A program made the translations under genes and the position numbers. A stretch of 64,000 nucleotides of DNA from assembly GCF_054482595.1 (NCBI RefSeq), contig NZ_CM137008.1; one strand, 5' to 3'. Positions 1 to 14,074 of this stretch are shown piece by piece. The notes beneath the pieces were generated by a model that was given only the letters and a program-made list of their open reading frames with translations, did no database searches and was not told where the DNA came from. Positions within the stretch are counted from its first letter, which is position 1. Each line of letters starts with the position of its first letter.

Positions 1-390
1 TTCGTCTGACCACTTAACGCCACGCTCTGTACCGAATGCCTGTATAAGCTCTAATAGCTCCGCAAATTCGCTTACACGCATCCTGCTGGTTGACTGGCCT
101 ATTACCACAAAGCCATTCCCGGCAAGGTTAGGAACAACGTCCTGCTGCTTTAATGCTGCGGTAAACACACACTTCCAGCTTTCTGCATCCAGCCAGCGAC
201 CATGCCATTCAACCTGACGAGAGACGTCACCAAGGCAAGCCCAAAGCTTTCGATTCTGGTCTAAGCTGCGGTTGCGTTCCTGAATGGTTACTACGATTGG
301 TTTGGTTGGGTCTGGAAGAATTTGCTGTACCGCGTGAATAGCGTTTTGCTGATGTGCTGGAGATCGAATTTCAAAGGTTAGTTTTTTCAT
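1..390 (-). CDS. ninB: NinB (Orf family recombination protein), N-terminal 130 codons; C-terminus lies beyond window start
   Basis: Reverse-strand translation from ATG at 390 reads MKKLTFEIRSPAHQQNAIHAVQQILPDPTK... and reaches window edge as ...ELLELIQAFGTERGVKWSDE, matching lambda NinB as recalled. Confidence 0.8.
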   Translation of the reverse strand, partial: MKKLTFEIRSPAHQQNAIHAVQQILPDPTKPIVVTIQERNRSLDQNRKLWACLGDVSRQVEWHGRWLDAESWKCVFTAALKQQDVVPNLAGNGFVVIGQSTSRMRVSEFAELLELIQAFGTERGVKWSDE

Positions 391-405
391 GACTTCCCTC
401 TCCCC

Positions 406-440
406 CAAATAAAAAGGCCTGCGATTACCAGCAGGCCTGT
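406..440 (-). terminator. Rho-independent terminator between ren and ninB (lambda tR2 position)
   Basis: 8-bp inverted repeat AGGCCTGC/GCAGGCCT followed on minus strand by UUUUUAUUU. Confidence 0.6.
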
Positions 441-463
441 TATTAGCTCAGTAATATAGATGG

Positions 464-754
464 TCATCTTTTAACTCCATATACCGCCAATACCCGTTTC
501 ATCGCGGCACTCTGGCGACACTCCTTAAAAATCAGGTTCGTGCTCATCTTTCCTTCCCGTTCTTCCTTGGTAGCAAACCGGTAATACACCGTTCGCCAGA
601 CCTTACCTTCGATAACCAGAAGACCTGCCCGTGCCATTTTAGCCGCGGCCTGATTTATGCTGGTTACTGTTGCGCCTGTTAGCGCGGCAACGTCCGGCGC
701 ACAGAAGCTATTATGCGTCCCCAGGTAATGAATAATTGCCTCTTTGCCCGTCAT
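464..754 (-). CDS. ren: Ren protein (96 aa)
   Basis: ORF translation matches lambda Ren as recalled; overlaps P stop as in lambda. Confidence 0.9.
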   Translation of the reverse strand: MTGKEAIIHYLGTHNSFCAPDVAALTGATVTSINQAAAKMARAGLLVIEGKVWRTVYYRFATKEEREGKMSTNLIFKECRQSAAMKRVLAVYGVKR

Positions 755-1452
755 ACACTTGCTCCTTTCAGTCCGAACTTAGCTTTGATTTCTGCGATCT
801 TCGCCAGAGCCTGTGCACGATTTAGAGGTCTACCGCCCATGACAGGAAGTTGTTTTACTGGTTCAGGGATCGCCTCACCACGGTTAATTCTCGCAGTCAT
901 ATGGACAAGCTCATCTGCGGCCTTACGGCGTAATTCCGCATCAGTAAGCGCATTGGCCCGCATGTTCTGATACAGGTTGGTAATCAGCCAGTAGTGCGCG
1001 TTTGATTTCCACGGATAAGACTCCGCATCCGGATACAGGCCTCGCTTCCGGCAATACTCGTAAACCATATCAACCAGCTCGCTGACGTTTGGCAGTCCGG
1101 CGGTAACGGATGCTTCTTCCCGGCACCATGCAACAAACTGCCCGGGTGATGGCAGAAATGGTCGATTCTGCCGACGGGCTACGCGCATTCCTGCGTTAAC
1201 CTGTTCCATTGTGGTGATCCCGTTTTCCCGGAAAGCCAGAACCCACTGGCGGCGGATTTCGTTCAGTTCGTTCTGGTCACGGTTAGCCAGGCTCGCCGGG
1301 AAAGTTGCCAGTAACTGGCTGAACACACCGTTGATGATCTGCGCTACCTGCTGTACCTGCGGCTTTTCGTCGTACTGTTCCGGCATGTTGTTGGCGATCC
1401 GACGCATCTGCTCACGGTCAAAGTTAACCATCTGTGCGGCGATGTTTTTCAT
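751..1452 (-). CDS. P: Replication protein P (DnaB helicase loader), 233 aa
   Basis: Full-length translation matches lambda P as recalled; overlaps O stop. Confidence 0.95.
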   Translation of the reverse strand: MKNIAAQMVNFDREQMRRIANNMPEQYDEKPQVQQVAQIINGVFSQLLATFPASLANRDQNELNEIRRQWVLAFRENGITTMEQVNAGMRVARRQNRPFLPSPGQFVAWCREEASVTAGLPNVSELVDMVYEYCRKRGLYPDAESYPWKSNAHYWLITNLYQNMRANALTDAELRRKAADELVHMTARINRGEAIPEPVKQLPVMGGRPLNRAQALAKIAEIKAKFGLKGASV

Positions 1453-2348
1453 AGATCCACCCCGTAAATCCAGTCTGTGTTTGTCAGGTCGAGTTTTGGT
1501 TTACTGGCTGTCACGACTGCCTGTTGCTTGTTACGGTTGATTTCGAGCTGGGTCCACTTGTCGCGGAGTTTGGCCGGACTCAGCACGTTACCGGACCAGA
1601 AGTTGTCCTGGCAGGCCCAGCGGAAAAGCACACACATATCGCGGTGGTTACGTCCGTCACGTTCACGCATCAGGCGGATATCGTTAGCCCACCCAGCAAA
1701 ATTCGGTTTTCTGGCTGATGGCGCGATGGTCTTCACCATGTCAAACATCCACTCTGCGGCGGTCAGGTCTTCTGCTGTTCCCCACTTGCTGCCGCTCTGA
1801 ATTGCAGCATCCGGTTTAACCACAGAAAGATCGTTTTCTGGCTGGTCAGAGGATTTGCCAGAATTCTCGGACGAATAATCTTTTCTTTTTTCTTTTGTAA
1901 TAGTGTCTTTTGTGTCCCCCTGTTTTGAGGGATAGCAATCCCCCAATTTGAGGGATGTTTTATCCCTCGTTTTAGGGGATTTTCCCTCGTTTTGAGGGAT
2001 ACACCATTCTGAGATGTTTTTATTTGGTCCAAACATGCCGCCTTGCTGCTTGATAATATTCATTCTGACGAGTTCTAACTTGGCTTCATTGCACCGTTTG
2101 ACAGGTAACTTTGTAATCTCGCTAAGTTGAGAATCGGTGATTCTGTCCATTGGTTTATTCCACCCATAGGTTTTACGCAGAATGGCAAGCAGCACTTTAA
2201 ACTGTCGCTTGGTCAGATCTGCGCCCGAATAAGCCTCAAGCAGCATATTTGATAGTCTGGCGTAACCATCATCGAGATCTGCCACATTACGCTCCTGTCC
2301 GGCAAAGTTACCTCTGCCGAAGTTGAGTATTTTTGCTGTATTTGTCAT
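1449..2348 (-). CDS. O: Replication initiator O, 299 aa
   Basis: Translation MTNTAKILNFGRGNFAGQERNV... near-identical to lambda O as recalled; contains ori iterons. Confidence 0.95.
   Translation of the reverse strand: MTNTAKILNFGRGNFAGQERNVADLDDGYARLSNMLLEAYSGADLTKRQFKVLLAILRKTYGWNKPMDRITDSQLSEITKLPVKRCNEAKLELVRMNIIKQQGGMFGPNKNISEWCIPQNEGKSPKTRDKTSLKLGDCYPSKQGDTKDTITKEKRKDYSSENSGKSSDQPENDLSVVKPDAAIQSGSKWGTAEDLTAAEWMFDMVKTIAPSARKPNFAGWANDIRLMRERDGRNHRDMCVLFRWACQDNFWSGNVLSPAKLRDKWTQLEINRNKQQAVVTASKPKLDLTNTDWIYGVDL
1870..2001. repeat. ori-lambda: four tandem iterons plus adjacent AT-rich region inside O
   Basis: Four ~19-bp repeats (TCCCTC-N-GAGGGA cores) at ~1912-2001, with an A/T-rich tract at 1870-1910. 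Confidence 0.85.
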
Positions 2349-2359
2349 AATGACTCCTG

Positions 2360-2434
2360 TGGATTGATCCAGTAATTCCCTCAGAATTGCATATCAATTT
2401 GCTTAGAGTCCCCGGCGGCCACCGGGGATTTTTT
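2360..2434 (+). ncRNA. oop: oop-like antisense RNA with its terminator (to), overlapping cII 3' end
   Basis: Plus-strand hairpin CCCCGG-CGGCCA-CCGGGG then T6 at 2410-2434, opposite to cII/O; position and sequence pattern resemble lambda oop as recalled; 5' end approximate. Confidence 0.6.
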
Positions 2435-2677
2435 CTTTGTGATTCCATCAAGCGCATACTTAAAAGCCCTGCTAATTGGACTGATGTCTGATGCCATTCC
2501 GAAAGCACACAAGACCGAAGCAATAAACCGCCAGTCCGTTCTGCTTATCTTCGATTCATGACAGCCAATCATCTTTGCCAGACCGCGCTGGGTAATAGTT
2601 GACAGATTGATAAGTAAATCTGTTTCTGCGCGATCAACGTCACGCTGTGATAGTTTGCTGTAACTTGTTCTTTCCAT
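2381..2677 (-). CDS. cII: CII-like transcriptional activator (98 aa)
   Basis: C-terminus ...KKKSPVAAGDSKQIDMQF resembles lambda CII ...KKRPAATERSEQIQMEF; HTH-like centre; lambda-order position between cro and O. Confidence 0.85.
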   Translation of the reverse strand: MERTSYSKLSQRDVDRAETDLLINLSTITQRGLAKMIGCHESKISRTDWRFIASVLCAFGMASDISPISRAFKYALDGITKKKSPVAAGDSKQIDMQF

Positions 2678-2762
2678 TTCTTAAGATTTCCAATAGTGAA
2701 TAGTTAGTTGAAAGGTATGCGTGGAAACGCATATGGCCTTAGTTGGTCAGATATCTTGGGAC

Positions 2763-2809
2763 TCGCTTTTCAGCGACGTAGGACGAATGTCCGTTGTTAC
2801 AAAGAGCGG
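2763..2809 (-). promoter_or_regulatory. nutR-like site (boxA CGCTCTTTGTAACAAC, boxB UCGCU-GAAA-AGCGA) on pR transcript
   Basis: Minus-strand boxA-like element followed by 5-bp stem/GAAA loop hairpin; near-identical architecture to the nutL candidate at 5263-5309. Confidence 0.5.
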
Positions 2810-2815
2810 GGTTAC

Positions 2816-3043
2816 TTATGCTGCCAGAAGGTTCTTTTTGCTTATTTCAAGCAATTCGCTTGCTTGATATTTGCCACCAGAAATCTCTTCGATTTTTGAG
2901 GCGTATTTCGTTTTCCCAAAAAACTCAGTCTTAGGGAGGAAGCCGTTTTTGAGCCACTTATAGACAGCCCTTTCGCTAACTCCACAAGCCTTCGCAACTT
3001 CAGGGATGCCGACACCTTTAATCGGCTCATCAAGATTTTGCAT
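2816..3043 (-). CDS. cro: Cro-like HTH repressor (75 aa)
   Basis: Small ORF divergent from cI with HTH motif (VAKACGVSERAVYKWLKNG); not lambda Cro sequence. Confidence 0.8.
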   Translation of the reverse strand: MQNLDEPIKGVGIPEVAKACGVSERAVYKWLKNGFLPKTEFFGKTKYASKIEEISGGKYQASELLEISKKNLLAA

Positions 3044-3122
3044 AGGAATATCCCTTTTTCGTACTTTTAGTACGCATTATGGTTGAACTGAAAGTTTTTG
3101 CAAGTGCTTTAGTATCGTACTC
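3044..3122. promoter_or_regulatory. oR-type operator/promoter region (divergent pR/pRM) between cro and cI
   Basis: 79-bp divergent intergenic region with palindromes GTACTTTTAGTAC (3061-3073) and AGTATCGTACT (3110-3120) and motif TTATGGTT also present near the pL region. Confidence 0.6.
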
Positions 3123-3830
3123 ATGGTTCAGAATGAAAAAGTGCGCAAAGAATTCGCCCAGCGGCTAGCGCAAGCCTGTAAAGAAGCTGGTCTTGATGAA
3201 CATGGTAGGGGTATGGCCATAGCCCGTGCCCTTTCTCTTTCGTCCAAAGGCGTTAGCAAATGGTTTAATGCTGAGTCTTTACCGCGTCAGGAAAAAATGA
3301 ATGCGCTTGCGAAATTTCTAAACGTTGATGTTGTTTGGCTTCAGCACGGCACTTCGTTAAATGGAGCGAATGATGAAGATACTCTTTCATTTGTTGGCAA
3401 ATTAAAAAAAGGGTTAGTGCGCGTGGTTGGTGAGGCAATTCTTGGTGTTGATGGTGCCATCGAGATGACCGAAGAGCGCGATGGGTGGCTCAAGATTTAT
3501 AGTGATGATCCAGATGCCTTTGGTCTTCGTGTGAAAGGAGACAGCATGTGGCCCAGAATAAAATCAGGAGAATATGTACTCATTGAGCCTAACACCAAAG
3601 TATTCCCGGGGGATGAGGTGTTTGTCAGAACCGTTGAAGGACACAACATGATCAAGATTCTTGGCTATGACAGAGATGGAGAATACCAATTTACAAGCAT
3701 CAACCAGGACCACAGGCCAATAACGTTACCTTATCATCAAGTAGCAAAGGTGGAGTATGTGGCTGGTATTCTGAAGCAATCTCGTCATCTGGATGACATC
3801 GAGGCAAGGGAGTGGCTGAAAAGTTTGTGA
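3123..3830 (+). CDS. cI: CI-type prophage repressor (N-terminal HTH + C-terminal S24 LexA-like autopeptidase), 235 aa
   Basis: HTH at N-terminus; GDSM serine motif and downstream lysine (MIKILG) typical of S24 family; heterologous to lambda cI. Confidence 0.9.
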   Translation: MVQNEKVRKEFAQRLAQACKEAGLDEHGRGMAIARALSLSSKGVSKWFNAESLPRQEKMNALAKFLNVDVVWLQHGTSLNGANDEDTLSFVGKLKKGLVRVVGEAILGVDGAIEMTEERDGWLKIYSDDPDAFGLRVKGDSMWPRIKSGEYVLIEPNTKVFPGDEVFVRTVEGHNMIKILGYDRDGEYQFTSINQDHRPITLPYHQVAKVEYVAGILKQSRHLDDIEAREWLKSL

Positions 3831-3953
3831 CTTCAAGTACGCGACAAGCCCCGTCCTTCAGGGCGTGGAGGATGTCAAAATAACTTTAAATAACACACCA
3901 CCAACATTTAACACATTGAATTAAAAAACCTACAATATTTGATGAGAGGCGTT

Positions 3954-4274
3954 ATGGAACCGGTCAAAATTAAACCATCTGTGGATTATATTGAAACCTA
4001 TGCGGACTTCGCTAGTTTTGCTCCACTACCGGGAGCGGAAAAAAATCTCATTTGTATACATTTTATCGCAAACAAGTCAATACCTGCGGTACTATCCCAA
4101 AATGATATACCAGATCAACCAGGTAGAGCGAATATGCAGATAGGCTCTGTAAATGAACTCAATCAGCAATGCACTGTGATAATGCCAATGGCACAACTAA
4201 AGGCTCTTCAGGAGAATATAGTTCTTCTTTTCGAACAATTAGAGGCACAAAACTCTAATGGAGCGAAGTCGTAA
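3954..4274 (+). CDS. Hypothetical protein ORF-A (~106 aa), first gene of cassette in rexA position
   Basis: ORF with GAGG Shine-Dalgarno 5 nt before ATG 3954 (alternative starts 3939/3942); stop overlaps ORF-B start (TAATG); no family recognised. Confidence 0.6.
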   Translation: MEPVKIKPSVDYIETYADFASFAPLPGAEKNLICIHFIANKSIPAVLSQNDIPDQPGRANMQIGSVNELNQQCTVIMPMAQLKALQENIVLLFEQLEAQNSNGAKS

Positions 4275-4957
4275 TGCAACAACCGGAAGAAGTAGGTGAT
4301 TTAACTATTACTTACAAAACATCAAGTATTGTTAAACCACTGCAAGTTTCCCTGAATAACGTTAATACTCGCGATTTCATGATGTTCATGGAAACAGCAA
4401 AAGGTAATCTGTTTTCTACGCCTATTTCCTCTTATTCACCAAAAAACATGGTGGATGATGCGACCAATTCCCAGCTAACTGCTACAATCGTAGATAAAGG
4501 AGGGGTTGCCGATTGTAAAGGACAATCTAATGTTATCCCACCGTACGAGGAAACTCCTATACAGGGAACCGCAATGTCCGATTTGAGCAGAAACGAAATA
4601 CAGGCACTTCTGAAGGCAAATAAAGCTGAAGTGGATGCAGTGGCCTCAAAAATGCAGGCTGATATGGCCAAATGGCGTGAACTAATGGCTTCAGATATAA
4701 AGGAGATGAAGCATTTAGTTGTTACTCAGCACGAACAAATCAACAGTCGTCTGGACATACAATCGAGTAGAATTGAGAGTGCCCTTGACTCCCAATCAAA
4801 AAAGATCGATGCAGCTCTTTCTGTTCAAGAGGCAAAGTTAGAAGGTAAGCTTAGTGATGTTAAGCTTGATATAATCAAATGGGCCCTTGGCTTGCCAGCA
4901 TTAGCATTTGCTGTATATAAAATCTACGGATTGCTCTCTGGAGTCTCAACCCCCTAA
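4274..4957 (+). CDS. Hypothetical tail-anchored membrane protein ORF-B (227 aa), in rexB position
   Basis: Translationally coupled to ORF-A; heptad-like/charged segment ~100-200; single C-terminal hydrophobic helix IIKWALGLPALAFAVYKIYGLL; no family recognised. Confidence 0.65.
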   Translation: MQQPEEVGDLTITYKTSSIVKPLQVSLNNVNTRDFMMFMETAKGNLFSTPISSYSPKNMVDDATNSQLTATIVDKGGVADCKGQSNVIPPYEETPIQGTAMSDLSRNEIQALLKANKAEVDAVASKMQADMAKWRELMASDIKEMKHLVVTQHEQINSRLDIQSSRIESALDSQSKKIDAALSVQEAKLEGKLSDVKLDIIKWALGLPALAFAVYKIYGLLSGVSTP

Positions 4958-4963
4958 TACACA

Positions 4964-4989
4964 CCCGGCCTCAGTGCCGGGTTTTCTTT
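4964..4989 (+). terminator. Rho-independent terminator closing the cI/ORF-A/ORF-B unit (lambda timm position)
   Basis: CCCGGC-CTCAGT-GCCGGG hairpin followed by TTTTCTTT. Confidence 0.65.
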
Positions 4990-4999
4990 GCCCAACGTT

Positions 5000-5262
5000 C
5001 GCCCACCTAAAAACACATAATCGATTGTATTTATTGAAAAACTGATAGATACAACTTGCTAAACAGTGCAACCCTGATCCCTGCCCCATCACCTTCATCC
5101 TCAACATTTACAAAAATAAAATACCTTATATATCAAAACCATATCTCGAGAAAACGAATGAACAACAAAATTTCGTACTTATGGTTCTTGATTGTATCGA
5201 ACCAATAGTTCATTATTATCACCATCAGCAGGACGCTGGAAGCCAAACGGAACAGACTGGCA
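5000..5262 (+). promoter_or_regulatory. pL/oL region (inferred), driving N and the leftward early operon
   Basis: Located between terminator and nutL; candidate -35/-10 TTGATT-17-CATTAT at ~5178-5206; inverted repeats GAACCAATAGTTC and TTATGGTTC. Confidence 0.4.
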
Positions 5263-5309
5263 GGCTCTTTAAACAACGTCGAACTCTCGACTACGTGGCT
5301 GAAAAGCCA
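5263..5309 (+). promoter_or_regulatory. nutL-like site (boxA GGCTCTTTAAACAAC, boxB UGGCU-GAAA-AGCCA)
   Basis: boxA-like GCTCTTT and 5-bp stem/GAAA loop hairpin ~100 nt upstream of N; same boxA/spacer(CTACGT)/boxB layout as the nutR candidate. Confidence 0.5.
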
Positions 5310-5407
5310 GATCACCCAACCACATAAGCTGTGGGATGCAATGCCGAAGCAACCGTCTCAGGAGGAGCTTCGAGATTGCATCGCCAAAGTTTATTCGGGA
5401 GGAATCT

Positions 5408-5680
5408 ATGTCCAGAAAAACAAAATTTAAAGGCACCGCAGCTTCTCGCCGTAGAGCCCGTCGCGCAAATCTGCAAAGTCAGGAGGCGATCAGCTCCGAC
5501 AAGCTACACAGACCAACCCCTTCACGAGTGGTCTTGCAATGCAAGCGCAAACCAGCAATGAGAGCAGAAGTTATAACTCTGACAACGTTGACCAGAAAAT
5601 ATGAAGGTTCAACTTGTCTTCCGAACGTAGCTCTTTACGCGGCAGGCTACCGGAAATCAAAACAACTGACGGCGAGATGA
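5408..5680 (+). CDS. N: N-type antiterminator (90 aa), P22 gp24-like
   Basis: Arg-rich N-terminal motif (GTAASRRRARRANL) and C-terminus ...CLPNVALYAAGYRKSKQLTAR resembling recalled P22 gp24 ...LLPGVALYAAGHRKSKQITAR; ORF-track start 5336 judged too far upstream. Confidence 0.8.
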   Translation: MSRKTKFKGTAASRRRARRANLQSQEAISSDKLHRPTPSRVVLQCKRKPAMRAEVITLTTLTRKYEGSTCLPNVALYAAGYRKSKQLTAR

Positions 5681-5696
5681 TAAATTAATTTGCTAA

Positions 5697-6278
5697 TTAC
5701 TTGTTTTTGCCATGCTTATCCTGAGCGATAAGTTCATCCATAAGACTGTCTTTCTTCCCAGCAAACCTAATGTAGCACTCATTTCTATAGCGTTCCGGGA
5801 TAACAAAACGGTCGATTTCAGGATATCCAGTAGCAGAAGGTACCCGAATAAGAAGCCCTTTTTCGAGCAATGAGATTGCTTCAGGGCTTCCCTTTTCTGT
5901 CTTTAGCTGGTTATTAGCGGCTACAGCGAATGCCAAATACGCTCTTTCTCCAAGAGTTAACGAATCAAACAAATCTTGCACGTATTTCTCTTCTTTAGAT
6001 TTGCGCTTCTGAGCAGCGAATATCTCAATTCTTTCAGTCACAGCGTGATAAGCGGAATTAACAACGCCGTTAAGCACATAGCTAACGCAAAACAACAGGA
6101 TGTAATACATCCAGTAATGAGGAAGGATTTCTGGATTATGCAGGTTTATCCATTCTTTTACGCTTACAGGCATAACAATAATCAATATGATCAGGATGAT
6201 TAGCATATGAATCAACTGTTTAAGTGTCATTCCTTGCAGGAAAAAATGCATTAGTTCCTGCCACCATGAGTTGTTCAT
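5697..6278 (-). CDS. sieB: Superinfection exclusion protein B (193 aa), membrane protein
   Basis: Translation MNNSWWQELMHFFLQGMTLKQLIHMLIILIILIIVMPV... matches lambda SieB as recalled. Confidence 0.9.
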   Translation of the reverse strand: MNNSWWQELMHFFLQGMTLKQLIHMLIILIILIIVMPVSVKEWINLHNPEILPHYWMYYILLFCVSYVLNGVVNSAYHAVTERIEIFAAQKRKSKEEKYVQDLFDSLTLGERAYLAFAVAANNQLKTEKGSPEAISLLEKGLLIRVPSATGYPEIDRFVIPERYRNECYIRFAGKKDSLMDELIAQDKHGKNK

Positions 6279-6538
6279 CGGCGTTTCTCTTTTGCTCTCT
6301 GTAGGGGTGAATAGAGTTTATCCGATTTCTCGCTGTAGGGGTACACGAGAACCACCGAGCCTGATGTGGTTAAAAGACAGGCATACTAATAAACACTGCA
6401 CTGTGTATTCATTCCAACGAGTGAATACACTGAGCAATGTCGCTCGTAACTAAACAGGAGCCGACTTGTTCTGATTATTGGAAATCTTCTTTGCCCTCCA
6501 ATGTGAGGGCGATTTTTTATCTGTGAGGATATGAATAG

Positions 6539-6907
6539 ATGTCAAACATCAAAAAATACATCATTGATTACGACTGGAAAGCATCAATAGAAATTGAAAT
6601 CGACCATGACGTAATGACAGAGGAAAAACTTCACCAGATTAATAATTTCTGGTCAGACTCTGAATACCGACTCAATAAACACGGCTCTGTATTAAATGCT
6701 GTATTAATCATGCTGGCGCAACATGCTCTGCTTATAGCAATTTCAAGCGACTTAAATGCATATGGTGTTGTGTGTGAGTTCGACTGGAATGATGGAAATG
6801 GTCAGGAAGGATGGCCTCCAATGGATGGTAGCGAAGGAATAAGAATTACCGATATCGATACATCAGGAATATTTGATTCAGATGATATGACTATCAAAGC
6901 CGCCTGA
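6539..6907 (+). CDS. ea10: Ea10-like protein (122 aa)
   Basis: Size and position between sieB and cIII as in lambda; sequence identity recalled only approximately. Confidence 0.75.
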   Translation: MSNIKKYIIDYDWKASIEIEIDHDVMTEEKLHQINNFWSDSEYRLNKHGSVLNAVLIMLAQHALLIAISSDLNAYGVVCEFDWNDGNGQEGWPPMDGSEGIRITDIDTSGIFDSDDMTIKAA

Positions 6908-6979
6908 GCGCGGCGTTACCGCATACCAATAACGCTTCACTCGAGGCGTTTTTCGTTATGTATAAATAAGGAGCACACC

Positions 6980-7144
6980 ATGCAATATGCCATTGCAGGG
7001 TGGCCTGTTGCTGGCTGCCCTTCCGAATCTTTACTTGAACGAATCACCCGTAAATTACGTGACGGATGGAAACGCCTTATCGACATACTTAATCAGCCAG
7101 GAGTCCCAAAAAATGGATCAAACACTTATGGCTATCCAGACTAA
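6980..7144 (+). CDS. cIII: CIII (FtsH inhibitor, 54 aa)
   Basis: Translation [54 protein letters not shown] matches lambda CIII; below ORF-track size cutoff. Confidence 0.9.
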   Translation: MQYAIAGWPVAGCPSESLLERITRKLRDGWKRLIDILNQPGVPKNGSNTYGYPD

Positions 7145-7256
7145 ATTCACTATCGCCACTTTTATTGGCGATGAAAAGATGTTTCGTGAGGCCGTCGACG
7201 CTTATAAAAAATGGATATTAATACTGAAACTGAGATCAAGCAAAAGCATTCACTAA
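7113..7256 (+). CDS. kil: Kil (FtsZ-targeting host killing peptide, 47 aa)
   Basis: [47 protein letters not shown] matches lambda Kil; overlaps cIII and gam. Confidence 0.85.
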
Positions 7257-7627
7257 CCCCCTTTCCTGTTTTCCTAATCAGCCCGGCATTTCGCGGGCGA
7301 TATTTTCACAGCTATTTCAGGAGTTCAGCCATGAACGCTTATTACATTCAGGATCGTCTTGAGGCTCAGAGCTGGACGCGTCACTACCAGCAGATCGCCC
7401 GTGAAGAGAAAGAGGCAGAACTGGCAGACGACATGGAAAAAGGTCTGCCCCAGCACCTGTTTGAATCACTCTGCATCGATCATTTACAACGCCACGGGGC
7501 CAGCAAAAAAGCCATTACCCGTGCGTTTGATGACGATGTTGAGTTTCAGGAGCGCATGGCAGAACACATCCGGTACATGGTTGAAACCATTGCTCACCAC
7601 CAGGTTGATATTGATTCAGAGGTATAA
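7211..7627 (+). CDS. gam: Gam (RecBCD inhibitor), 138 aa long form
   Basis: Translation near-identical to lambda Gam as recalled. Confidence 0.95.
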
Positions 7628-7632
7628 AACGG

Positions 7633-8418
7633 ATGAGTACAGCACTCGCAACGCTGGCTGGGAAGCTGGCTGAACGCGTCGGCATGGATTCTGTCGACCC
7701 ACAGGAACTGATCACCACTCTTCGCCAGACGGCATTTAAAGGTGATGCCAGCGATGCGCAGTTCATCGCATTGCTGATCGTCGCCAACCAGTACGGCCTT
7801 AATCCGTGGACGAAAGAAATTTACGCCTTCCCTGACAAGCAGAACGGCATCGTTCCGGTGGTGGGCGTTGATGGCTGGTCCCGTATCATCAATGAAAACC
7901 AGCAGTTTGATGGCATGGACTTTGAGCAGGACAATGAATCCTGCACATGCCGGATTTACCGCAAGGACCGCAATCATCCGATCTGCGTTACCGAGTGGAT
8001 GGATGAATGCCGCCGCGAACCATTCAAAACCCGCGAAGGCAGAGAAATCACGGGGCCGTGGCAGTCGCATCCCAAACGGATGTTACGGCATAAAGCCATG
8101 ATTCAGTGTGCCCGTCTCGCCTTCGGATTTGCTGGTATCTATGACAAGGATGAAGCCGAGCGCATTGTCGAAAATACCGCATACACTGCAGAACGTCAGC
8201 CGGAACGCGACATCACTCCGGTTAACGATGAAACCATGCAGGAGATTAACACTCTGCTGATTGCCCTGGATAAAACATGGGATGACGACTTATTGCCGCT
8301 CTGTTCCCAGATATTTCGCCGCGACATTCGAGCATCGTCAGAACTGACACAGGCCGAAGCAGTGAAAGCTCTTGGATTCCTGAAACAGAAAGCCACTGAG
8401 CAGAAGGTGGCAGCATGA
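7633..8418 (+). CDS. bet: Bet (Red beta single-strand annealing protein), 261 aa
   Basis: Translation matches lambda Bet as recalled. Confidence 0.95.
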
Positions 8419-9095
8419 CACCGGACATTATCCTGCAGCGTACCGGGATCGACGTGAGAGCTGTCGAACAGGGGGATGATGCGTGGCACAAATTACGGCT
8501 CGGCGTCATCACCGCTTCAGAGGTTCACAATGTGATAGCAAAACCCCGCTCCGGAAAGAAATGGCCTGACATGAAAATGTCCTACTTCCACACCCTGCTT
8601 GCCGAGGTTTGCACCGGTGTGGCTCCGGAAGTTAACGCTAAGGCGCTGGCCTGGGGAAAACAGTACGAGAACGACGCCAGAGCCCTCTTTGAGTTCACTT
8701 CCGGCGTGAATGTTACTGAATCCCCGATCATCTATCGCGACGAAAGTATGCGCACCGCCTGCTCTCCCGATGGTTTATGCAGTGACGGCAACGGCCTTGA
8801 ACTGAAATGCCCGTTTACCTCCCGGGATTTCATGAAGTTCCGGCTCGGTGGTTTCGAGGCCATAAAGTCGGCTTACATGGCCCAGGTGCAGTACAGCATG
8901 TGGGTGACGCGAAAAGATGCCTGGTACTTTGCCAACTATGACCCGCGCATGAAGCGTGAAGGCCTGCATTATGTCGTGATTGAGCGGAATGAAAAGTACA
9001 TGGCGAGTTTTGACGAGATGGTGCCGGAGTTCATCGAAAAAATGGACGAGGCACTGGCTGAAATTGGTTTTGTATTTGGGGAGCAATGGCGATGA
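8415..9095 (+). CDS. exo: Exo (Red alpha 5'-3' exonuclease), 226 aa
   Basis: Translation matches lambda Exo as recalled. Confidence 0.95.
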
Positions 9096-9274
9096 CGCAT
9101 CCTCACGATAATATCCGGGTAGGCGCAATCACTTTCGTCTACTCCGTTACAAAGCGAGGCTGGGTATTTCCCGGCCTTTCTGTTATCAGAAATCCACTGA
9201 AAGCACAGCGGCTGGCTGAGGAGATAAATAATAAACGGGGAGCTGTATGCACAAAGCATCTCCCGTTGAGTTAA
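9086..9274 (+). CDS. lambda orf60a-like small protein (62 aa)
   Basis: Matches recalled lambda orf60a; overlaps exo 3' end. Confidence 0.7.
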
Positions 9275-9438
9275 GAACGAGTATCGAGATGGCACATAGC
9301 CTCGCTCAAATTGGAGTCAGGTTTGTGCCAATACCAGTAGAAACAGACGAAGAATTTCATACGTTAGCCGCATCCCTTTCACAAAAGCTGGAAATGATGG
9401 TGGCGAAAGCAGAAGCAGATGAGAGAGACCAGGTATGA
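9247..9438 (+). CDS. lambda orf63-like small protein (63 aa)
   Basis: Matches recalled lambda orf63. Confidence 0.7.
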   Translation: MHKASPVELRTSIEMAHSLAQIGVRFVPIPVETDEEFHTLAASLSQKLEMMVAKAEADERDQV

Positions 9439-9518
9439 CAACCACGGAATGCATTTTTCTGGCAGCGGGCTTCATATTCTGTGTGCTTATGCTTGCCGAC
9501 ATGGGACTTGTTCAATGA
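9435..9518 (+). CDS. Small hydrophobic peptide (27 aa, MTTTECIFLAAGFIFCVLMLADMGLVQ), ATGA-coupled on both sides
   Basis: Read from sequence: ATG overlaps orf63 stop (ATGA), stop overlaps next gene start (ATGA); single predicted TM helix; below ORF-track cutoff. Confidence 0.4.
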   Translation: MTTTECIFLAAGFIFCVLMLADMGLVQ

Positions 9519-9730
9519 CACCTCAGCAGGAAAACGCCCTTCGCAGTATTGCCCGTCAGGCTAATTCTGAAATCAAAAAAGCCAGACAGCAGTTTCCGGA
9601 TAAAAACGTCGATGACATTTGCCGTAGCGTACTGAAGAAGCACCGCGAAACGGTAACGCTGATGGGATTCACACCGACTCATTTAAGCCTGGCGATCGGC
9701 ATGTTAAACGGCGTCTTTAAGGAACGGTGA
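9515..9730 (+). CDS. lambda orf61-like small protein (71 aa from this start)
   Basis: In-frame ATG at 9515 within ORF 9419-9730; sequence MTPQQENALRSIARQ...; start choice uncertain. Confidence 0.6.
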   Translation: MTPQQENALRSIARQANSEIKKARQQFPDKNVDDICRSVLKKHRETVTLMGFTPTHLSLAIGMLNGVFKER

Positions 9731-9752
9731 GCATGAAAAACAAAATCATCAT

Positions 9753-9776
9753 GGAGCTACAGGCTCCTTTTTTATT
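9753..9776 (+). terminator. Weak intrinsic terminator-like hairpin inside the leftward operon
   Basis: GGAGC-TACAG-GCTCC followed by TTTTTT; only a 5-bp stem. Confidence 0.35.
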
Positions 9777-9828
9777 ATTCGCATTCACCCTCAAGCGTAT
9801 TAACCAACAATTCAGGGATTAATGAAAG

Positions 9829-10050
9829 ATGGCAGACATCATTGATTCAGCATCAGAAATTGAAGAATTACAGCGCAATACAGCAATAAAAATGCGTCGT
9901 CTGAACTACCAGACTATATCCGCCACTCATTGTTGTGAGTGTGGCGATCCCATAGATGAACGAAGACGCCTGGTCGTTCAGGGTTGTCGGACTTGTGCAA
10001 GTTGCCAGGAGGATCTGGAGCTTATCAGTAAACAGAGAGGTTCGAAGTGA
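9829..10050 (+). CDS. TraR/DksA-family C4 zinc-finger protein (73 aa)
   Basis: CxxC...CxxC motif (CCECGDPIDERRRLVVQGCRTCASCQ) typical of TraR/DksA-type phage proteins. Confidence 0.7.
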   Translation: MADIIDSASEIEELQRNTAIKMRRLNYQTISATHCCECGDPIDERRRLVVQGCRTCASCQEDLELISKQRGSK

Positions 10051-10454
10051 GCGAAATTAACTCTCAGGCACTGCGTGAAGCGGCAGAGAAAGCCGGTGAA
10101 GATAAGTGGCAGGCTAAAAAAATAAATGGTGATTTTTTCGTTATTCGTCACGGTAGTTATACAAGACAGCATGGCTACACATCGTATCAACCCATTGCGG
10201 AGATTGATTGTAAGCCAGTCCGGGATTTTGTTGCCAAGGCTAATCCGGCTACCGTGCTGGAATTACTGGATGAACTGGAAGCAGCAAAAAAGCGCATTGC
10301 AGAACTGGAAGCGCGGGAAATACTGCTCCCGGAACGTAGCAGCATGCTTCATCGAACAGATTTTCACGATGATTACCAAACGGTAATGGCATACAAAGTT
10401 TCTGAAGTCATCGATGCAATCCGCGCTACTGGCATTCGCATCAAAGGAGAGTGA
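10047..10454 (+). CDS. Ead/Ea22-like protein (135 aa), shortened/mosaic
   Basis: N-terminus MSEINSQALREAAE and C-terminus ...ATGIRIKGE as in lambda Ea22 family; coiled-coil motif LELLDELEAAKKRIAELEARE. Confidence 0.7.
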   Translation: MSEINSQALREAAEKAGEDKWQAKKINGDFFVIRHGSYTRQHGYTSYQPIAEIDCKPVRDFVAKANPATVLELLDELEAAKKRIAELEAREILLPERSSMLHRTDFHDDYQTVMAYKVSEVIDAIRATGIRIKGE

Positions 10455-10455
10455 G

Positions 10456-11211
10456 ATGATTCACTACCACGGTGGGCCTATTACTCCTGATACGTGCGCA
10501 ATGAGGGCATGGAAAGGGCGACATGCGTTTATCAGTTTTGCGCATTCAGGCCAGATCAATCTCGCGGCTGAATACTGTCAGTCGTTCGCGCTGGACAACG
10601 GTGCATTCACCGCCTGGAAAGCAGCTGGCAAAAACAAAATCGACTGGAGCGATTACTACGAGTTTGTTGCTCGCTGGAAGAATCACCCAGGATTCGATTT
10701 TGCCATTATCCCGGATATTATTGATGGCGGAGAGGAGGAAAATGATGCGCTTCTGAATGAGTGGCCTCACGGAAAACTAGCTGGCGTTCCAGTGTGGCAC
10801 ATGAATGAAAGTGACGCGCGATTTATTCATTTGTGCAATGAGTTTCCGCGAGTGGCTATCGGTAGTTGTGGCGACTATGACGTAAAGCGCCCAACTCTTG
10901 CGGTAGCCAGAATGAAAGACCTGATTCGTCACATTGTTGATGGGCATGGTCAGCCGGTTACGAAACTACATGGATTGCGCATGTTAAATCCGCTGATATT
11001 CACAAAATTACCCTTAGCCAGCGCAGATAGTACGAACGTCGCTCGAAACATCGGTATTGATAAAGCCTGGTCTAGGGCTTATGCACCTGCAAGTAAAGAG
11101 ACACGCGCAGCATTAATGGTAGAACGGATTGAGGCACACAATAGCCCTGGTTCTCTTGCGTATTGTGAACAACGCGACCGCTTTGAAATGCAATTGCAAC
11201 TAGCAGTTTAA
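10456..11211 (+). CDS. TGT-fold protein, candidate DpdA-like 7-deazaguanine DNA transglycosylase (251 aa)
   Basis: Strong SD AGGAG before ATG 10456; ordered motifs LDNGAF, FAIIPD, VAIGSCG, HGLRM, ADSTNVARN resembling tRNA-guanine transglycosylase motifs DSGGYQ, MAFDE, AVGG, HYLMGVG, FDCVLPTRSGRN; no zinc-binding subdomain; assignment by eye. Confidence 0.55.
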   Translation: MIHYHGGPITPDTCAMRAWKGRHAFISFAHSGQINLAAEYCQSFALDNGAFTAWKAAGKNKIDWSDYYEFVARWKNHPGFDFAIIPDIIDGGEEENDALLNEWPHGKLAGVPVWHMNESDARFIHLCNEFPRVAIGSCGDYDVKRPTLAVARMKDLIRHIVDGHGQPVTKLHGLRMLNPLIFTKLPLASADSTNVARNIGIDKAWSRAYAPASKETRAALMVERIEAHNSPGSLAYCEQRDRFEMQLQLAV

Positions 11212-11221
11212 GGACTAACAA

Positions 11222-12019
11222 ATGACCACTATTACCAAAGAACGTATTGAATTGTTCATTAAAAATCCGCTTGAAAACGGACTTACTCGTGGCGAACAAA
11301 TGGAACTGGCACGAATTGCACTGGCATCACTGGAACGCGAACTGATTCGCCACGAGCATGCCAAATGGTCTGACTCCACATTTGGCTGCGTTGGCCCCAT
11401 TGGTCCACTGAAACACCTCTCAAAAGAGGCTCTGGAAGCCGCAGCCGAACCAGACGATCTCAGCGAGTGGGCTGATATGCATTTCCTGTTGTGGGATGCA
11501 CAGCGCCGTGCTGGCATCAGCGATGCTGAAATTACCGCTGCTATGGAAGATAAATTGAAGATCAACATGGAGCGCCAGTGGCCTGAACCAATAGATGGTG
11601 AGCCTCGCTTGCACATTAAAGAACCCGGCAACTCTCCGGTAATTCCGGATGGTTTATCCACGGTATGCGCTGAGGCTTATCAGGTTGTAGGAGTTATGGC
11701 AGATGCGCTTGGTGTATTCGGTGATGCAGCAGTACAGAAAGTTCTGGATAACCTGTCACAGCAAAAACTTGTTCACAGAGATGTGCTGCCGTTCTCGCTT
11801 CCGGTGACTCCGGATGGTTGGATAAGCTGTAGTGAGCGAATGCCGAAAGAAACGGGTGACATTATTGTTGTTTCGGATGGCATTGTAATGTCCGGGATTT
11901 CTTATTCTCGTCGTGACGGGTTCTATATAGCCGCATTGGAGTACGACGACGATGAGCCAATTGGCGGTGTAACCCACTGGATGCCTCTACCAGAACCGCC
12001 TCGATTAAAGGAGCTATAA
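11222..12019 (+). CDS. Phage protein with N-terminal dATP/dGTP pyrophosphohydrolase-like (DUF550-like) region and C-terminal DUF551-like region (265 aa)
   Basis: C-terminal motif PDGWISCSERMPKE...THWMPLPEPP typical of DUF551; N-terminal acidic region (EWADMHFLLWDAQRR) resembles MazG-like nucleotide pyrophosphohydrolases; recalled, not searched. Confidence 0.6.
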   Translation: MTTITKERIELFIKNPLENGLTRGEQMELARIALASLERELIRHEHAKWSDSTFGCVGPIGPLKHLSKEALEAAAEPDDLSEWADMHFLLWDAQRRAGISDAEITAAMEDKLKINMERQWPEPIDGEPRLHIKEPGNSPVIPDGLSTVCAEAYQVVGVMADALGVFGDAAVQKVLDNLSQQKLVHRDVLPFSLPVTPDGWISCSERMPKETGDIIVVSDGIVMSGISYSRRDGFYIAALEYDDDEPIGGVTHWMPLPEPPRLKEL

Positions 12020-12133
12020 TAGTGAACTATTATATCTATTTGTATTAAAAGAGTTTTTATAAAATAAATCTTCCAAAGCATGTAAAAACACTGTTAATCT
12101 TAACGTGTGTGAAACGTGAAGAGAGGTGTTGAA

Positions 12134-12415
12134 ATGAGCATTCATGATTTGTGTGAAGATCAAGAGCAATGGGCTATGCAGACCCTTATGGGATCAGGAG
12201 TTCTTGCAAGGTGCAGAATCCATAACGATGTAATTTTAGACAGCGGAAATGATGCTTCTTCTGCTTATAAATTAGGAACTTACCTATATCAAAAAGATAA
12301 TAGCTGCAACTTATTCAATACTCTTACTGAAGCCCGCGACGCAATAAAGGATGCATATGAATCGTATTGTGGGATCGATGATTGCCCACAATGCTCAAAA
12401 TACATTGACGATTAA
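12134..12415 (+). CDS. ea8.5: Ea8.5-like protein (93 aa from ATG 12134)
   Basis: SD GAGAGGTG upstream of ATG 12134 (ORF track starts at GTG 12116); C-terminal CPQC motif; lambda-like position and size. Confidence 0.6.
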   Translation: MSIHDLCEDQEQWAMQTLMGSGVLARCRIHNDVILDSGNDASSAYKLGTYLYQKDNSCNLFNTLTEARDAIKDAYESYCGIDDCPQCSKYIDD

Positions 12416-12503
12416 TAATATGAACAAGTAACTATCCTCGCACTCGCGGGGATTTCTTTTATCTGAACTCGCTACGGCGAGTTTTGTTTTATGGAGATGA
12501 TAA

Positions 12504-12671
12504 ATGCACTTCCGAGTTACAGGTGAATGGAATGGAGAACCATTCAACAGAGTTATCGAAGCCGAGAACATCAGCGACTGCTATGACCACTGGATGCTGT
12601 GGGCGCAGATAGCACATGCAGACGTAACCAATATTCGAATTGAAGAACTGAAAGAACACCAAGCCGCCTGA
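12504..12671 (+). CDS. lambda orf55-like protein (55 aa)
   Basis: Translation MHFRVTGEWNGEPFNRVIEAENISDCYDHWMLWAQIAHADVTNIRIEELKEHQAA; followed by hairpin and T-run; below ORF-track cutoff. Confidence 0.6.
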   Translation: MHFRVTGEWNGEPFNRVIEAENISDCYDHWMLWAQIAHADVTNIRIEELKEHQAA

Positions 12672-12710
12672 TGGCGGTTTTTTCTTGCGTGTAATTGCGG
12701 AGACTTTGCG

Positions 12711-12929
12711 ATGTACTTGACACTTCAGGAGTGGAACGCACGCCAGCGACGCCCAAGAAGCCTTGAAACAGTTCGTCGATGGGTACGCGAGTGCAGGATA
12801 TTCCCTCCTCCGGTTAAGGATGGAAGAGAGTATCTGTTCCACGAATCAGCGGTAAAGGTTGACTTAAATCGACCAGTAACAGGTAGCCTTTTGAAGAGGA
12901 TCAGAAATGGGAAGAAGGCGAAGTCATGA
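12711..12929 (+). CDS. xis: Excisionase Xis (72 aa)
   Basis: Translation MYLTLQEWNARQRRPRSLETVRRWVRECRIFPPPVKDGREYLFHESAVKVDLNRPVTGSLLKRIRNGKKAKS matches lambda Xis. Confidence 0.95.
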   Translation: MYLTLQEWNARQRRPRSLETVRRWVRECRIFPPPVKDGREYLFHESAVKVDLNRPVTGSLLKRIRNGKKAKS

Positions 12930-13980: not shown

Positions 13981-14074
13981 TTTTATTTTGACTAATAATG
14001 ACCTACTTACATTAATTTACTGATAATTAAAGAGATTTTAAATATACAACTTATTCACCTTAAGTGCACCGACC
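13981..14074. other. attL-type prophage/host junction region (P' arm with arm-type Int sites; core not resolved)
   Basis: TTTTGACTAATAATGACC resembles lambda P' arm-type sites as recalled; lies between int stop and host torS start. Confidence 0.4.

What the first reader, a model, noticed from the sequence alone, without database searches (positions are those of the whole stretch)
3044..5215. Operator-like motifs shared between the cro-cI intergenic region and the putative pL region
The cro/cI intergenic region (3044..3122) has palindromes GTACTTTTAGTAC and AGTATCGTACT plus CATTATGGTTGAAC. The region upstream of nutL (5120..5215) has TTTCGTACTTATGGTTC and the palindrome GAACCAATAGTTC. Shared TTTCGTACT and TTATGGTT elements at both promoters suggest the binding sites of the heterologous CI/Cro pair, though exact operator boundaries cannot be set by eye.
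Basis: seen in the sequence. Interest (0 to 1): 0.3.

Follow-up and report, generated by a model that had tools for sequence, protein, structure and literature searches.

The report
Known phage 933W repressor operator sites
The shared motifs are the five binding sites of the phage 933W CI repressor, which have already been studied experimentally, sitting in an E. coli prophage with 933W-type immunity; the finding is real but ordinary.

Summary
They lie in the immunity region of a lambdoid prophage next to torS. Its cro-cI segment is 97.9% identical to Shiga-toxin phage 933W. CI is 233/234 identical and Cro 74/75.

The real units are five 15-bp pseudo-symmetric operators with the half-site C-G-(A/T)-A-C-(T/C):
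- OR1, 3060-3074
- OR2, 3084-3098
- OR3, 3116-3130, which spans the cI ATG
- OL2, 5174-5188
- OL1, 5198-5212

The three OR sites are the annotated oR1-oR3 of 933W. A matrix built from 933W's ten half-sites ranks these five first in 64 kb. Across 41 distinct pL regions linked to this CI, contact positions vary in 2 of 16 columns and central positions in 9 of 10.

TTTCGTACT is the left half of OR1 and OL2, and GAACCAATAGTTC is the core of OL1. Three details were wrong:
- TTATGGTT in OR is the pR -10 hexamer plus three bases. It is at chance level and polymorphic.
- AGTATCGTACT mis-frames OR3.
- OR2 was missed.

933W operator recognition is published (PMC3317979, PMC5977221), so this is already known and of low interest.

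The parts
2816..3043 (-). cro (75 aa), transcribed from pR
   Evidence: ORF. It is 74/75 identical to 933W Cro, with HTH hits in Pfam.
3060..3074 (.). OR1, CGTACTTTTAGTACG. It covers the predicted pR start region just downstream of the -10.
   Evidence: Maps onto the annotated 933W oR1. Matrix score 16.7, second best in 64 kb. It differs from 933W OR1 (CGTACTTTCAGTACG) by one central base.
3076..3081 (-). pR -10 hexamer CATAAT, read on the minus strand.
   Evidence: Promoter scan gives TTGCAA-16-CATAAT. It lies inside the pR annotation of 933W and phi24B. ATTATG is invariant in the four-way alignment with phage HK75.
3084..3098 (.). OR2, TGAACTGAAAGTTTT. It lies in the pR spacer between -35 and -10 and over the weak pRM -35 region.
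   Evidence: Identical to the annotated 933W oR2. Matrix score 12.2, fifth best in 64 kb. Invariant in all 16 distinct OR variants.
3098..3103 (-). pR -35 hexamer TTGCAA
   Evidence: and the phi24B -35 annotation.
3110..3115 (+). Predicted pRM -10, TAGTAT. The annotated start is 1 nt before the cI ATG, so cI mRNA is leaderless or nearly so.
   Evidence: Transferred by position from the 933W pM and phi24B pRM annotations. This is a prediction and was not tested here.
3116..3130 (.). OR3, CGTACTCATGGTTCA. It spans the pRM start and cI codons 1-3 (ATG GTT CA).
   Evidence: Identical to the annotated 933W oR3. Matrix score 14.7.
3123..3830 (+). cI repressor (235 aa), HTH plus S24 autocleavage domain
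   Evidence: 233/234 identical to 933W CI. The only change, I179V, is outside the DNA-binding domain. Pfam HTH_3 and Peptidase_S24. S41, K42, K46 and E51 are present, read directly from the translation.
3954..4957 (+). Two cargo ORFs in the rexAB position (3954-4274 and 4274-4957), presumably co-transcribed with cI
   Evidence: No confident family hit. 933W carries four different genes here.
4963..4982 (+). Terminator of the pRM operon (tM)
   Evidence: Terminator scan. It aligns with the annotated 933W tM.
5174..5188 (.). OL2, CGTACTTATGGTTCT. It abuts the pL -35.
   Evidence: Aligns with the 933W site CGTACCAATAGTTCT, which I designate OL2 (the record annotates no oL sites). Matrix score 15.0. 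Contact positions are conserved across 41 pL variants.
5188..5193 (+). Predicted pL -35, TTGATT
   Evidence: Read from the sequence: TTGATT-N17-CATTAT. TTGAT is nearly invariant across the variants.
5198..5212 (.). OL1, CGAACCAATAGTTCA. It lies in the pL spacer and overlaps the -10 by 2 nt.
   Evidence: Aligns with the 933W site CGAACTATTGGTTCA, which I designate OL1 (the record annotates no oL sites). Best matrix score in 64 kb, 17.1. Contact positions are conserved.
5211..5216 (+). Predicted pL -10, CATTAT
   Evidence: Corresponds in position to the putative -10 annotated in phage Stx2 II. Conserved in most variants.
5264..5309 (+). nutL: boxA-like GCTCTTTAA (5264-5272) and a boxB-like hairpin TGGCT-GAAA-AGCCA (5296-5309)
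   Evidence: Read. 98% identical to the VT2-Sakai N leader. Aligns with the annotated 933W nutL. This is a prediction.
5408..5680 (+). N antiterminator gene, first gene of the pL operon
   Evidence: PGAP name: transcriptional antitermination N peptide.

Best explanation
The motifs are the operator sites of a 933W-type (imm933W) lysis-lysogeny switch. This prophage's CI repressor has a DNA-binding domain identical to that of phage 933W. As a dimer it recognises 15-bp pseudo-symmetric sites whose half-site is C-G-(A/T)-A-C-(T/C), with a loosely specified 3-bp centre.

Three sites lie between cro and cI:
- OR1 sits over the pR start.
- OR2 sits in the pR spacer.
- OR3 sits over the pRM start and the cI ATG.

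Two sites flank the pL -35. OL2 is upstream of it and OL1 is in the spacer. There is no OL3.

In a lysogen, CI at OR1/OR2 and at OL1/OL2 blocks RNA polymerase at pR and pL. CI at OR2 is taken to stimulate pRM (the held paper says only that binding at OR does so), and CI at OR3 shuts pRM off.

For 933W itself the following are published: the five sites, their 15-bp symmetry, the contacts by S41, K42, K46 and E51, the lack of cooperativity, and the affinity order OR1 > OR2 > OR3 (about 1 : 14 : 26). That the same holds here is inferred from sequence identity. That Cro uses the same sites in the reverse order is inferred from the lambdoid paradigm.
For: - The cro-cI block is 97.9% identical to 933W and phi24B, and those records annotate oR1, oR2 and oR3 at the corresponding positions.
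- CI is 233/234 identical and Cro 74/75. The published contact residues S41, K42, K46 and E51 are present in the translation (PMC3317979).
- A matrix from the ten 933W half-sites ranks exactly these five sites as the top five of about 64,000 positions. Four score 14.7-17.1, against a shuffle maximum of 12.3 +/- 1.2.
- CGWAC-N5-GTWC occurs only at four of these sites in 64 kb.
- The pL region is only 81% identical to 933W's, yet both OL sites keep their half-sites while their centres differ.
- Across 41 distinct pL regions, aligned on an anchor outside the operators, contact positions 2-5 and 2'-5' vary in 2 of 16 columns, centres in 9 of 10, and flanks in 37 of 46.
- Salmonella phage SI8 (81% DNA identity) keeps all five sites.
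- Literature: five natural operators, a 15-bp symmetric site, positions 4 and 5 invariant, only T or C at position 6 (PMC3317979). No OL3, no cooperativity, and OR3 occupancy represses pRM (PMC5977221; PMC4848623).
Against: - There is no binding data for this exact prophage. OR1, OL1 and OL2 differ from the tested 933W sites at central positions 6-8.
- OR2 alone scores at the chance level (12.2 against a shuffle maximum of about 12.3). Its assignment rests on position and on identity to the 933W site.
- The matrix was built from 933W sites, and the OR sites here are nearly identical to them. OR recovery is therefore partly circular. Independent support comes from OL and from the comparative data.
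- The promoter hexamers and the pRM start are annotation or consensus predictions. The primary mapping papers (PMC524894, PMC524892, PMC3133280) were not available.
- I found no data on Cro binding.
Confidence: 0.93

Rival explanations
1. The shared words are chance similarities, or shared sigma-70 promoter elements in two AT-rich promoter regions, and are not repressor sites.
For: This is true for TTATGGTT. It occurs 2 times against 1.7 expected, and a shared 8-mer arises in 25% of shuffles. Its OR copy overlaps the pR -10 and is polymorphic.
Against: TTTCGTACT(T) exceeds chance. The dyad pattern hits only the control regions. The five sites match annotated and published 933W operators. Contact positions are conserved while centres and flanks drift.
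Confidence: 0.03
2. The operators are the short palindromes as the reader framed them: the 11-bp AGTATCGTACT, and a site containing CATTATGGTTGAAC.
For: AGTATCGTACT is a perfect 4+3+4 palindrome. CATTATGGTTGAAC shares TTATGGTT with OL2.
Against: The 15-mer centred on AGTATCGTACT scores -14.9, and every 15-mer across 3062-3083 is negative. The published site is 15 bp with a 5-bp gap between the GWAC cores. The 933W and phi24B records place oR3 across the cI ATG and oR2 at TGAACTGAAAGTTTT.
Confidence: 0.03
3. The region belongs to the HK022 immunity group, and the sites are HK022-type operators bound by an HK022-specificity repressor.
For: The HK022-type phage HK75 has 15-bp operators with the same grammar (TGAACTTATGGTTCA), the same three-site OR layout, and an oR3 across an ATGGTTCA cI start. 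The 933W matrix picks HK75's six annotated operators as its top six hits.
Against: CI is only 35% identical overall (about 49% in the N-terminal domain) and Cro 45%, against 99% to 933W. There is no OL3 and no OFR-like site downstream of cro. The window carries N and nut, not Nun and put.
Confidence: 0.02

Closest known systems
Phage 933W (and phi24B) immunity region: operators OR1-OR3 and OL1-OL2 of the 933W CI repressor
   Same: - CI is 233/234 identical and Cro 74/75.
- OR2 and OR3 are identical in sequence, and OR1 differs at one central base.
- Positions relative to pR, pRM and the cI ATG are the same.
- There are two OL sites 24 bp apart around the pL -35, and no OL3.
- The tM terminator is homologous.
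   Different: - The pL/OL segment is only about 81% identical. The OL1 and OL2 centres differ: CCAATAG against CTATTGG in OL1, and CTTATGG against CCAATAG in OL2.
- OR1 has a 4-bp central A/T tract (TTTT against TTTC).
- The cargo between cI and tM is two unknown ORFs instead of 933W's four genes, which include stk.
- The N/nutL module is VT2-Sakai type, and replication is lambda O/P type with 4 iterons.
HK022-type immunity (phages HK022 and HK75): CI, Cro and their oR/oL operators
   Same: A homologous switch. It shares the 15-bp operators with GAAC/GTAC half-sites, a collinear OR with the same pR -10, an oR3 overlapping a cI gene that begins ATGGTTCA (Met-Val-Gln), and conserved K42, K46 and E51 equivalents.
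   Different: The immunity group is different: CI is about 35% identical and Cro 45%. HK022-type phages have three OL sites and the extra OFR operator, and use Nun/put instead of N/nut. From my own knowledge, HK022 repressor is reported to bind highly cooperatively, whereas 933W repressor is reported not to.
Lambda CI/Cro switch (OR1-3, OL1-3)
   Same: The logic is the same: divergent pR and pRM with three operators between cro and cI, an S24 autocleaving repressor, operators over pL, and a rex-position cargo operon ending in a terminator.
   Different: The operator sequence and length are unrelated (17 bp, TATCACCGCCAGAGGTA type). Lambda has an OL3 and uses cooperative and looping interactions. 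933W-type has neither an OL3 nor, per the literature, cooperativity.

Membership tests
imm933W (933W CI/Cro operator system) | Repressor with the 933W DNA-binding domain, including contact residues S41, K42, K46 and E51 | tested here: met
   233/234 identity, with the only change at residue 179. The residues were read from the translation against PMC3317979.
imm933W (933W CI/Cro operator system) | Cognate Cro of 933W type | tested here: met
   74/75 identity.
imm933W (933W CI/Cro operator system) | Three 15-bp pseudo-symmetric operators between cro and cI at the annotated oR1, oR2 and oR3 positions, with oR3 across the cI ATG | tested here: met
   Window coordinates are 3060-3074, 3084-3098 and 3116-3130.
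imm933W (933W CI/Cro operator system) | Half-site G-(A/T)-A-C at positions 2-5 and a pyrimidine at position 6 | tested here: met
   Nine of ten half-sites fit. The right half of OR2 has T at 2', exactly as published for 933W OR2.
imm933W (933W CI/Cro operator system) | Two OL sites at pL and no OL3 | tested here: met
   OL2 is at 5174-5188 and OL1 at 5198-5212. No third site scores above background near pL. The literature says 933W has no OL3.
imm933W (933W CI/Cro operator system) | Physical binding of the repressor to these sites, and immunity to 933W superinfection | not testable with these tools
   Published for 933W's own sites (PMC3317979). OR1, OL1 and OL2 here differ at central positions.
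imm933W (933W CI/Cro operator system) | Non-cooperative binding with the affinity order OR1 > OR2 > OR3 | not testable with these tools
   Literature only.
HK022-type immunity | Repressor and Cro of HK022 specificity (near-identical proteins) | tested here: not met
   CI is 35% identical and Cro 45% to HK75.
HK022-type immunity | Third OL operator, and an OFR operator downstream of cro | tested here: not met
   The best matrix score in 2300-2830 is 8.5, inside cII. There is no third site at pL. HK75 has both.
HK022-type immunity | 15-bp GAAC/GTAC operators in a collinear OR | tested here: met
   This shows shared ancestry and grammar, not shared immunity.
Lambda-type CI switch (general architecture) | Divergent pR and pRM with three operators, an HTH plus S24 repressor, and operators at pL | tested here: met

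The most novel reading that the evidence does not exclude
The natural operator variants of this prophage may shift CI's affinity hierarchy. They are an OR1 with a 4-bp central A/T tract and OL1/OL2 with exchanged centres. Such a shift could make the prophage more stable than the 'hair-trigger' 933W. The literature reports that a central A-tract raises 933W repressor affinity more than 4-fold.

A second possibility follows from the shared operator grammar of 933W-type and HK022-type switches. The two repressors might cross-bind each other's operators when co-resident.
Probability: 0.15. Interest if true: 0.3.

Novelty: already known. Interest (0 to 1): 0.08.

Why it matters
It matters little as a discovery. 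The 933W operators, their consensus, and the protein-DNA contacts are published and annotated in GenBank records. The practical value is in annotation:
- It fixes the five operator coordinates and the pR, pRM and pL layout in this prophage.
- It shows that the imm933W module circulates outside Stx phages, attached to different N, replication and cargo modules. The full arrangement is found in 38 complete E. coli genomes.
- It provides a natural-variation footprint from 41 pL variants that agrees, position by position, with the published mutagenesis.

Tried and rejected
- **Third OL site.** I looked for an OL3 in the window and found none. The next-best matrix hits (38074, 45351 and others, scoring 11.8 or less) are scattered in chromosomal genes at the chance level.
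- **OFR-like operator.** I looked for an HK022-style OFR site between cro and cII and found none.
- **TTATGGTT as a shared functional element.** I rejected it on chance, polymorphism, its absence from 933W OL2, and negative matrix scores.
- **AGTATCGTACT as an operator frame.** I rejected it.
- **A biased first tally.** My first conservation tally used a regular expression that forced GWAC...GTWC, so it was biased. I redid it with an anchor outside the operators. One locus, L063, was mis-anchored and was dropped.
- **More distant relatives.** The IMG/VR scan returned only loci with CI at least 98% identical. It gave OL and OR variation but no more distant immunity regions. Salmonella phage SI8 and HK75 filled that gap.
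- **Primary papers.** The primary footprinting and promoter-mapping papers (PMC524894, PMC524892, PMC3133280) are not held.
- **Cargo ORFs.** Pfam and PADLOC searches of the two ORFs between cI and tM gave nothing reliable.
Full report
**What is in the window**

Bases 1-13,980 are the early (left) arm of a lambdoid prophage, drawn in reverse of the lambda map. The genes are:

| Gene | Coordinates | Strand |
|---|---|---|
| ninB | to 390 | - |
| ren | 464-754 | - |
| P | 751-1452 | - |
| O | 1449-2348 | - |
| cII | 2381-2677 | - |
| cro | 2816-3043 | - |
| cI | 3123-3830 | + |
| two unknown ORFs | 3954-4957 | + |
| N | 5408-5680 | + |
| sieB | 5697-6278 | - |

cIII, kil, gam, bet and exo follow, then xis and int (12,907-13,980). 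After int come torS and ordinary E. coli chromosome. The 2700-5700 segment is 100% identical in several complete E. coli genomes, and the arrangement occurs in 38 genomes.

**Checking the observation**

TTTCGTACT occurs three times in 64 kb against 0.33 expected. The shared word is really the 10-mer TTTCGTACTT. A shared word that long arises in about 2% of dinucleotide shuffles of the two regions.

TTATGGTT occurs twice against 1.7 expected. A shared 8-mer arises in 25% of shuffles. One of the two shared elements is therefore beyond chance and the other is not.

**Identity of the region**

The cro-cI block (2816-3830) is 97.9% identical to phages 933W, phi24B and many Stx phages. CI is 233/234 identical to 933W CI, the only change being I179V in the C-terminal domain. 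Cro is 74/75 identical.

The 933W and phi24B GenBank records annotate oR1, oR2, oR3, pR and pM/pRM. Transferred through the alignment, these are:
- OR1, 3060-3074, CGTACTTTTAGTACG
- OR2, 3084-3098, TGAACTGAAAGTTTT
- OR3, 3116-3130, CGTACTCATGGTTCA

OR2 and OR3 are identical to 933W. OR1 differs by one central base (TTTC to TTTT).

The pL region is more diverged, at about 81% identity to 933W-type phages. It aligns colinearly from the tM terminator (4963-4982) to the pL -10. It contains OL2 at 5174-5188 (CGTACTTATGGTTCT; 933W has CGTACCAATAGTTCT) and OL1 at 5198-5212 (CGAACCAATAGTTCA; 933W has CGAACTATTGGTTCA). The half-sites are kept and the centres differ.

**Tests of the operator model**

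1. I built a log-odds matrix from the ten half-sites of the five 933W operators and scored every 15-mer in the window. The top five of about 64,000 positions are exactly OL1 (17.1), OR1 (16.7), OL2 (15.0), OR3 (14.7) and OR2 (12.2). The maximum in 30 dinucleotide shuffles averaged 12.3 +/- 1.2. OR2 is thus unremarkable by score alone and is supported by position and identity. Recovery of the OR sites is partly circular, because they are nearly the same sequences the matrix was built from. The OL sites are an independent test.
2. The pattern CGWAC-N5-GTWC hits four sites, all of them operators, and nothing else in 64 kb. The expected number is 1.09.
3. Natural variation gives a footprint. Eighty IMG/VR loci with CI at least 98% identical, together with 933W, phi24B, SI8 and the window, gave 16 distinct OR regions and 41 distinct pL regions. 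I aligned the pL regions on an anchor downstream of the promoter, so the operators did not define the alignment. Results are in the table below.

| Column class | Columns that vary |
|---|---|
| Contact positions 2-5 and 2'-5' | 2 of 16 |
| Central positions 6-8-6' | 9 of 10 |
| Outside the operators | 37 of 46 |

   One of the two variable contact columns is an A/T swap at position 3, which the repressor tolerates. Position 6 shows almost only C or T. This matches the published finding that only T-A or C-G is accepted there.
4. Salmonella phage SI8 (81% DNA identity) keeps all five sites.

**What the literature says**

Bullwinkle et al. 2012 (PMC3317979) describe five natural 933W operators (OR1-3 and OL1-2):
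- The site is 15 bp and rotationally symmetric.
- Positions 2-5 are conserved, with positions 4 and 5 invariant.
- T at position 3 and C at position 6 bind better than the consensus bases.
- Positions 7, 8 and 7' are read indirectly, and a central A-tract raises affinity more than 4-fold.
- S41, K42, K46 and E51 are the specificity residues.

All four residues are present in this CI.

PMC5977221 and PMC4848623 add the following:
- 933W has no OL3.
- The relative dissociation constants (higher means weaker binding) in intact OR are OR1 : OR2 : OR3 = 1 : 13.6 : 26.4.
- Partial OR3 occupancy represses pRM. This keeps repressor levels low and induction 'hair-trigger'.

**Layout and mechanism**

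pR, on the minus strand, reads TTGCAA (3103..3098), a 16-nt spacer, then CATAAT (3081..3076). OR2 fills the spacer. OR1 lies just downstream of the -10, over the start region.

pRM, on the plus strand, has a predicted -10 TAGTAT (3110-3115). Its annotated start is 1 nt before the cI ATG. OR3 therefore covers the pRM start and the first three cI codons, and cI mRNA is leaderless or nearly so.

pL reads TTGATT (5188-5193), a 17-nt spacer, then CATTAT (5211-5216). The -10 corresponds in position to the putative -10 annotated in phage Stx2 II. OL1 fills the spacer and OL2 abuts the -35.

Shown here are the sites, their identity to or homology with the 933W sites, and their conservation pattern. 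Taken from the literature on 933W are binding, affinities and regulatory consequences. Inferred are that the same holds for this prophage's three variant sites and that Cro uses the same sites.

|---|---|
| GTACTTTTAGTAC | OR1 core |
| TTTCGTACTTATGGTTC | OL2 plus flank |
| GAACCAATAGTTC | OL1 core |
| TTTCGTACT | Flank plus the shared left half-site of OR1 and OL2 |
| TTATGGTT (OL copy) | Centre and right half of OL2 |
| TTATGGTT (OR copy) | Complement of the pR -10 plus three bases |
| AGTATCGTACT | True palindrome in the wrong frame for OR3 |

The OR copy of TTATGGTT is not part of an operator, for these reasons:
- Every 15-mer across it scores negative.
- It reads TTATGATT in 30 of the 82 related loci for which the OR region was tallied.
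- 933W's OL2 does not contain the word.

The 15-mer centred on AGTATCGTACT scores -14.9. OR2 was missed altogether.

**Relatives**

The nearest distinct system is HK022-type immunity. In phage HK75 the annotated oR1, oR2, oR3, oL1, oL2 and OFR are the top six hits of the 933W matrix. The OR regions are collinear, including an oR3 across an ATGGTTCA cI start. However, CI is only 35% identical overall (about 49% in the N-terminal domain) and Cro 45%. The window has no OL3 and no OFR. It is a member of the 933W immunity group and a cousin of HK022's.

**Conclusion**

The finding is real, correctly placed and correctly interpreted in kind. It corresponds to a published, annotated operator system. 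The novelty rating is 'already known' and interest is low.

Noticed in passing
window 5213-5225: There is a mosaic junction at pL. Upstream of the -10 the window follows 933W-type sequence (81% identity). From about 5222 (ACCATCAGCAGGACGCTGG...) it is 98% identical to the VT2-Sakai N leader. A short block, TCAGCAGGACGC, is shared by all three phages and may be the recombination point that bounds the immunity module.
   Followed up: partly
window 3954-4957: Two ORFs (106 and 227 aa) sit in the rexAB position between cI and the tM terminator. They replace 933W's four genes (DUF3024, RuvC-like, stk and a small ORF). Neither has a confident family. The second has only a sub-threshold CCDC90-like coiled-coil hit and a C-terminal hydrophobic segment. 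They could be lysogen-expressed exclusion or defence cargo.
   Followed up: partly
L084 (phage HK75) 2171-2185, 2437-2508, 3269-3307: The 933W-derived operator matrix picks HK75's six annotated HK022-type operators, OFR included, as its top six hits, with a large gap to the seventh. The two heteroimmune groups therefore share operator grammar, and cross-binding is conceivable.
   Followed up: partly
L022 and L065 (IMG/VR loci), pL region: A natural variant of the window-type pL region has OL2 = CGTACTTATGGTTAT. This is a C-to-A change at contact position 2', which published mutagenesis suggests would weaken binding.
   Followed up: no
L003 (Salmonella phage SI8) 6370-6384: A possible third OL-like site, CGTACTAAAAGGACA (matrix score 11.7), lies 33 bp upstream of OL2. 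It is absent from the window and from 933W.
   Followed up: no
window 3060-3074: OR1 here has TTTT at its centre, where 933W has TTTC. The variant is rare, seen in 3 of the 83 loci examined. Since central A-tracts are reported to raise 933W repressor affinity, it may bind at least as tightly as 933W OR1.
   Followed up: partly
window 1915-2000: Four ori iterons of the form TCCC(C/T)(C/T)NNTTT(T/G)AGGGGA lie inside the O gene, as in lambda. 933W has six annotated iterons.
   Followed up: no
window 5205-5430: RefSeq (PGAP) annotates a frameshifted 'hypothetical protein' pseudogene here. It overlaps the pL -10, the nutL region and the N leader, so it is probably not a gene.
   Followed up: no
window 12907-14075: The prophage ends with xis and int immediately next to torS. 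The rest of the window (torS to beyond ompA) is ordinary E. coli chromosome. The late region of the phage, and with it any stx locus, lies outside the window.
   Followed up: no
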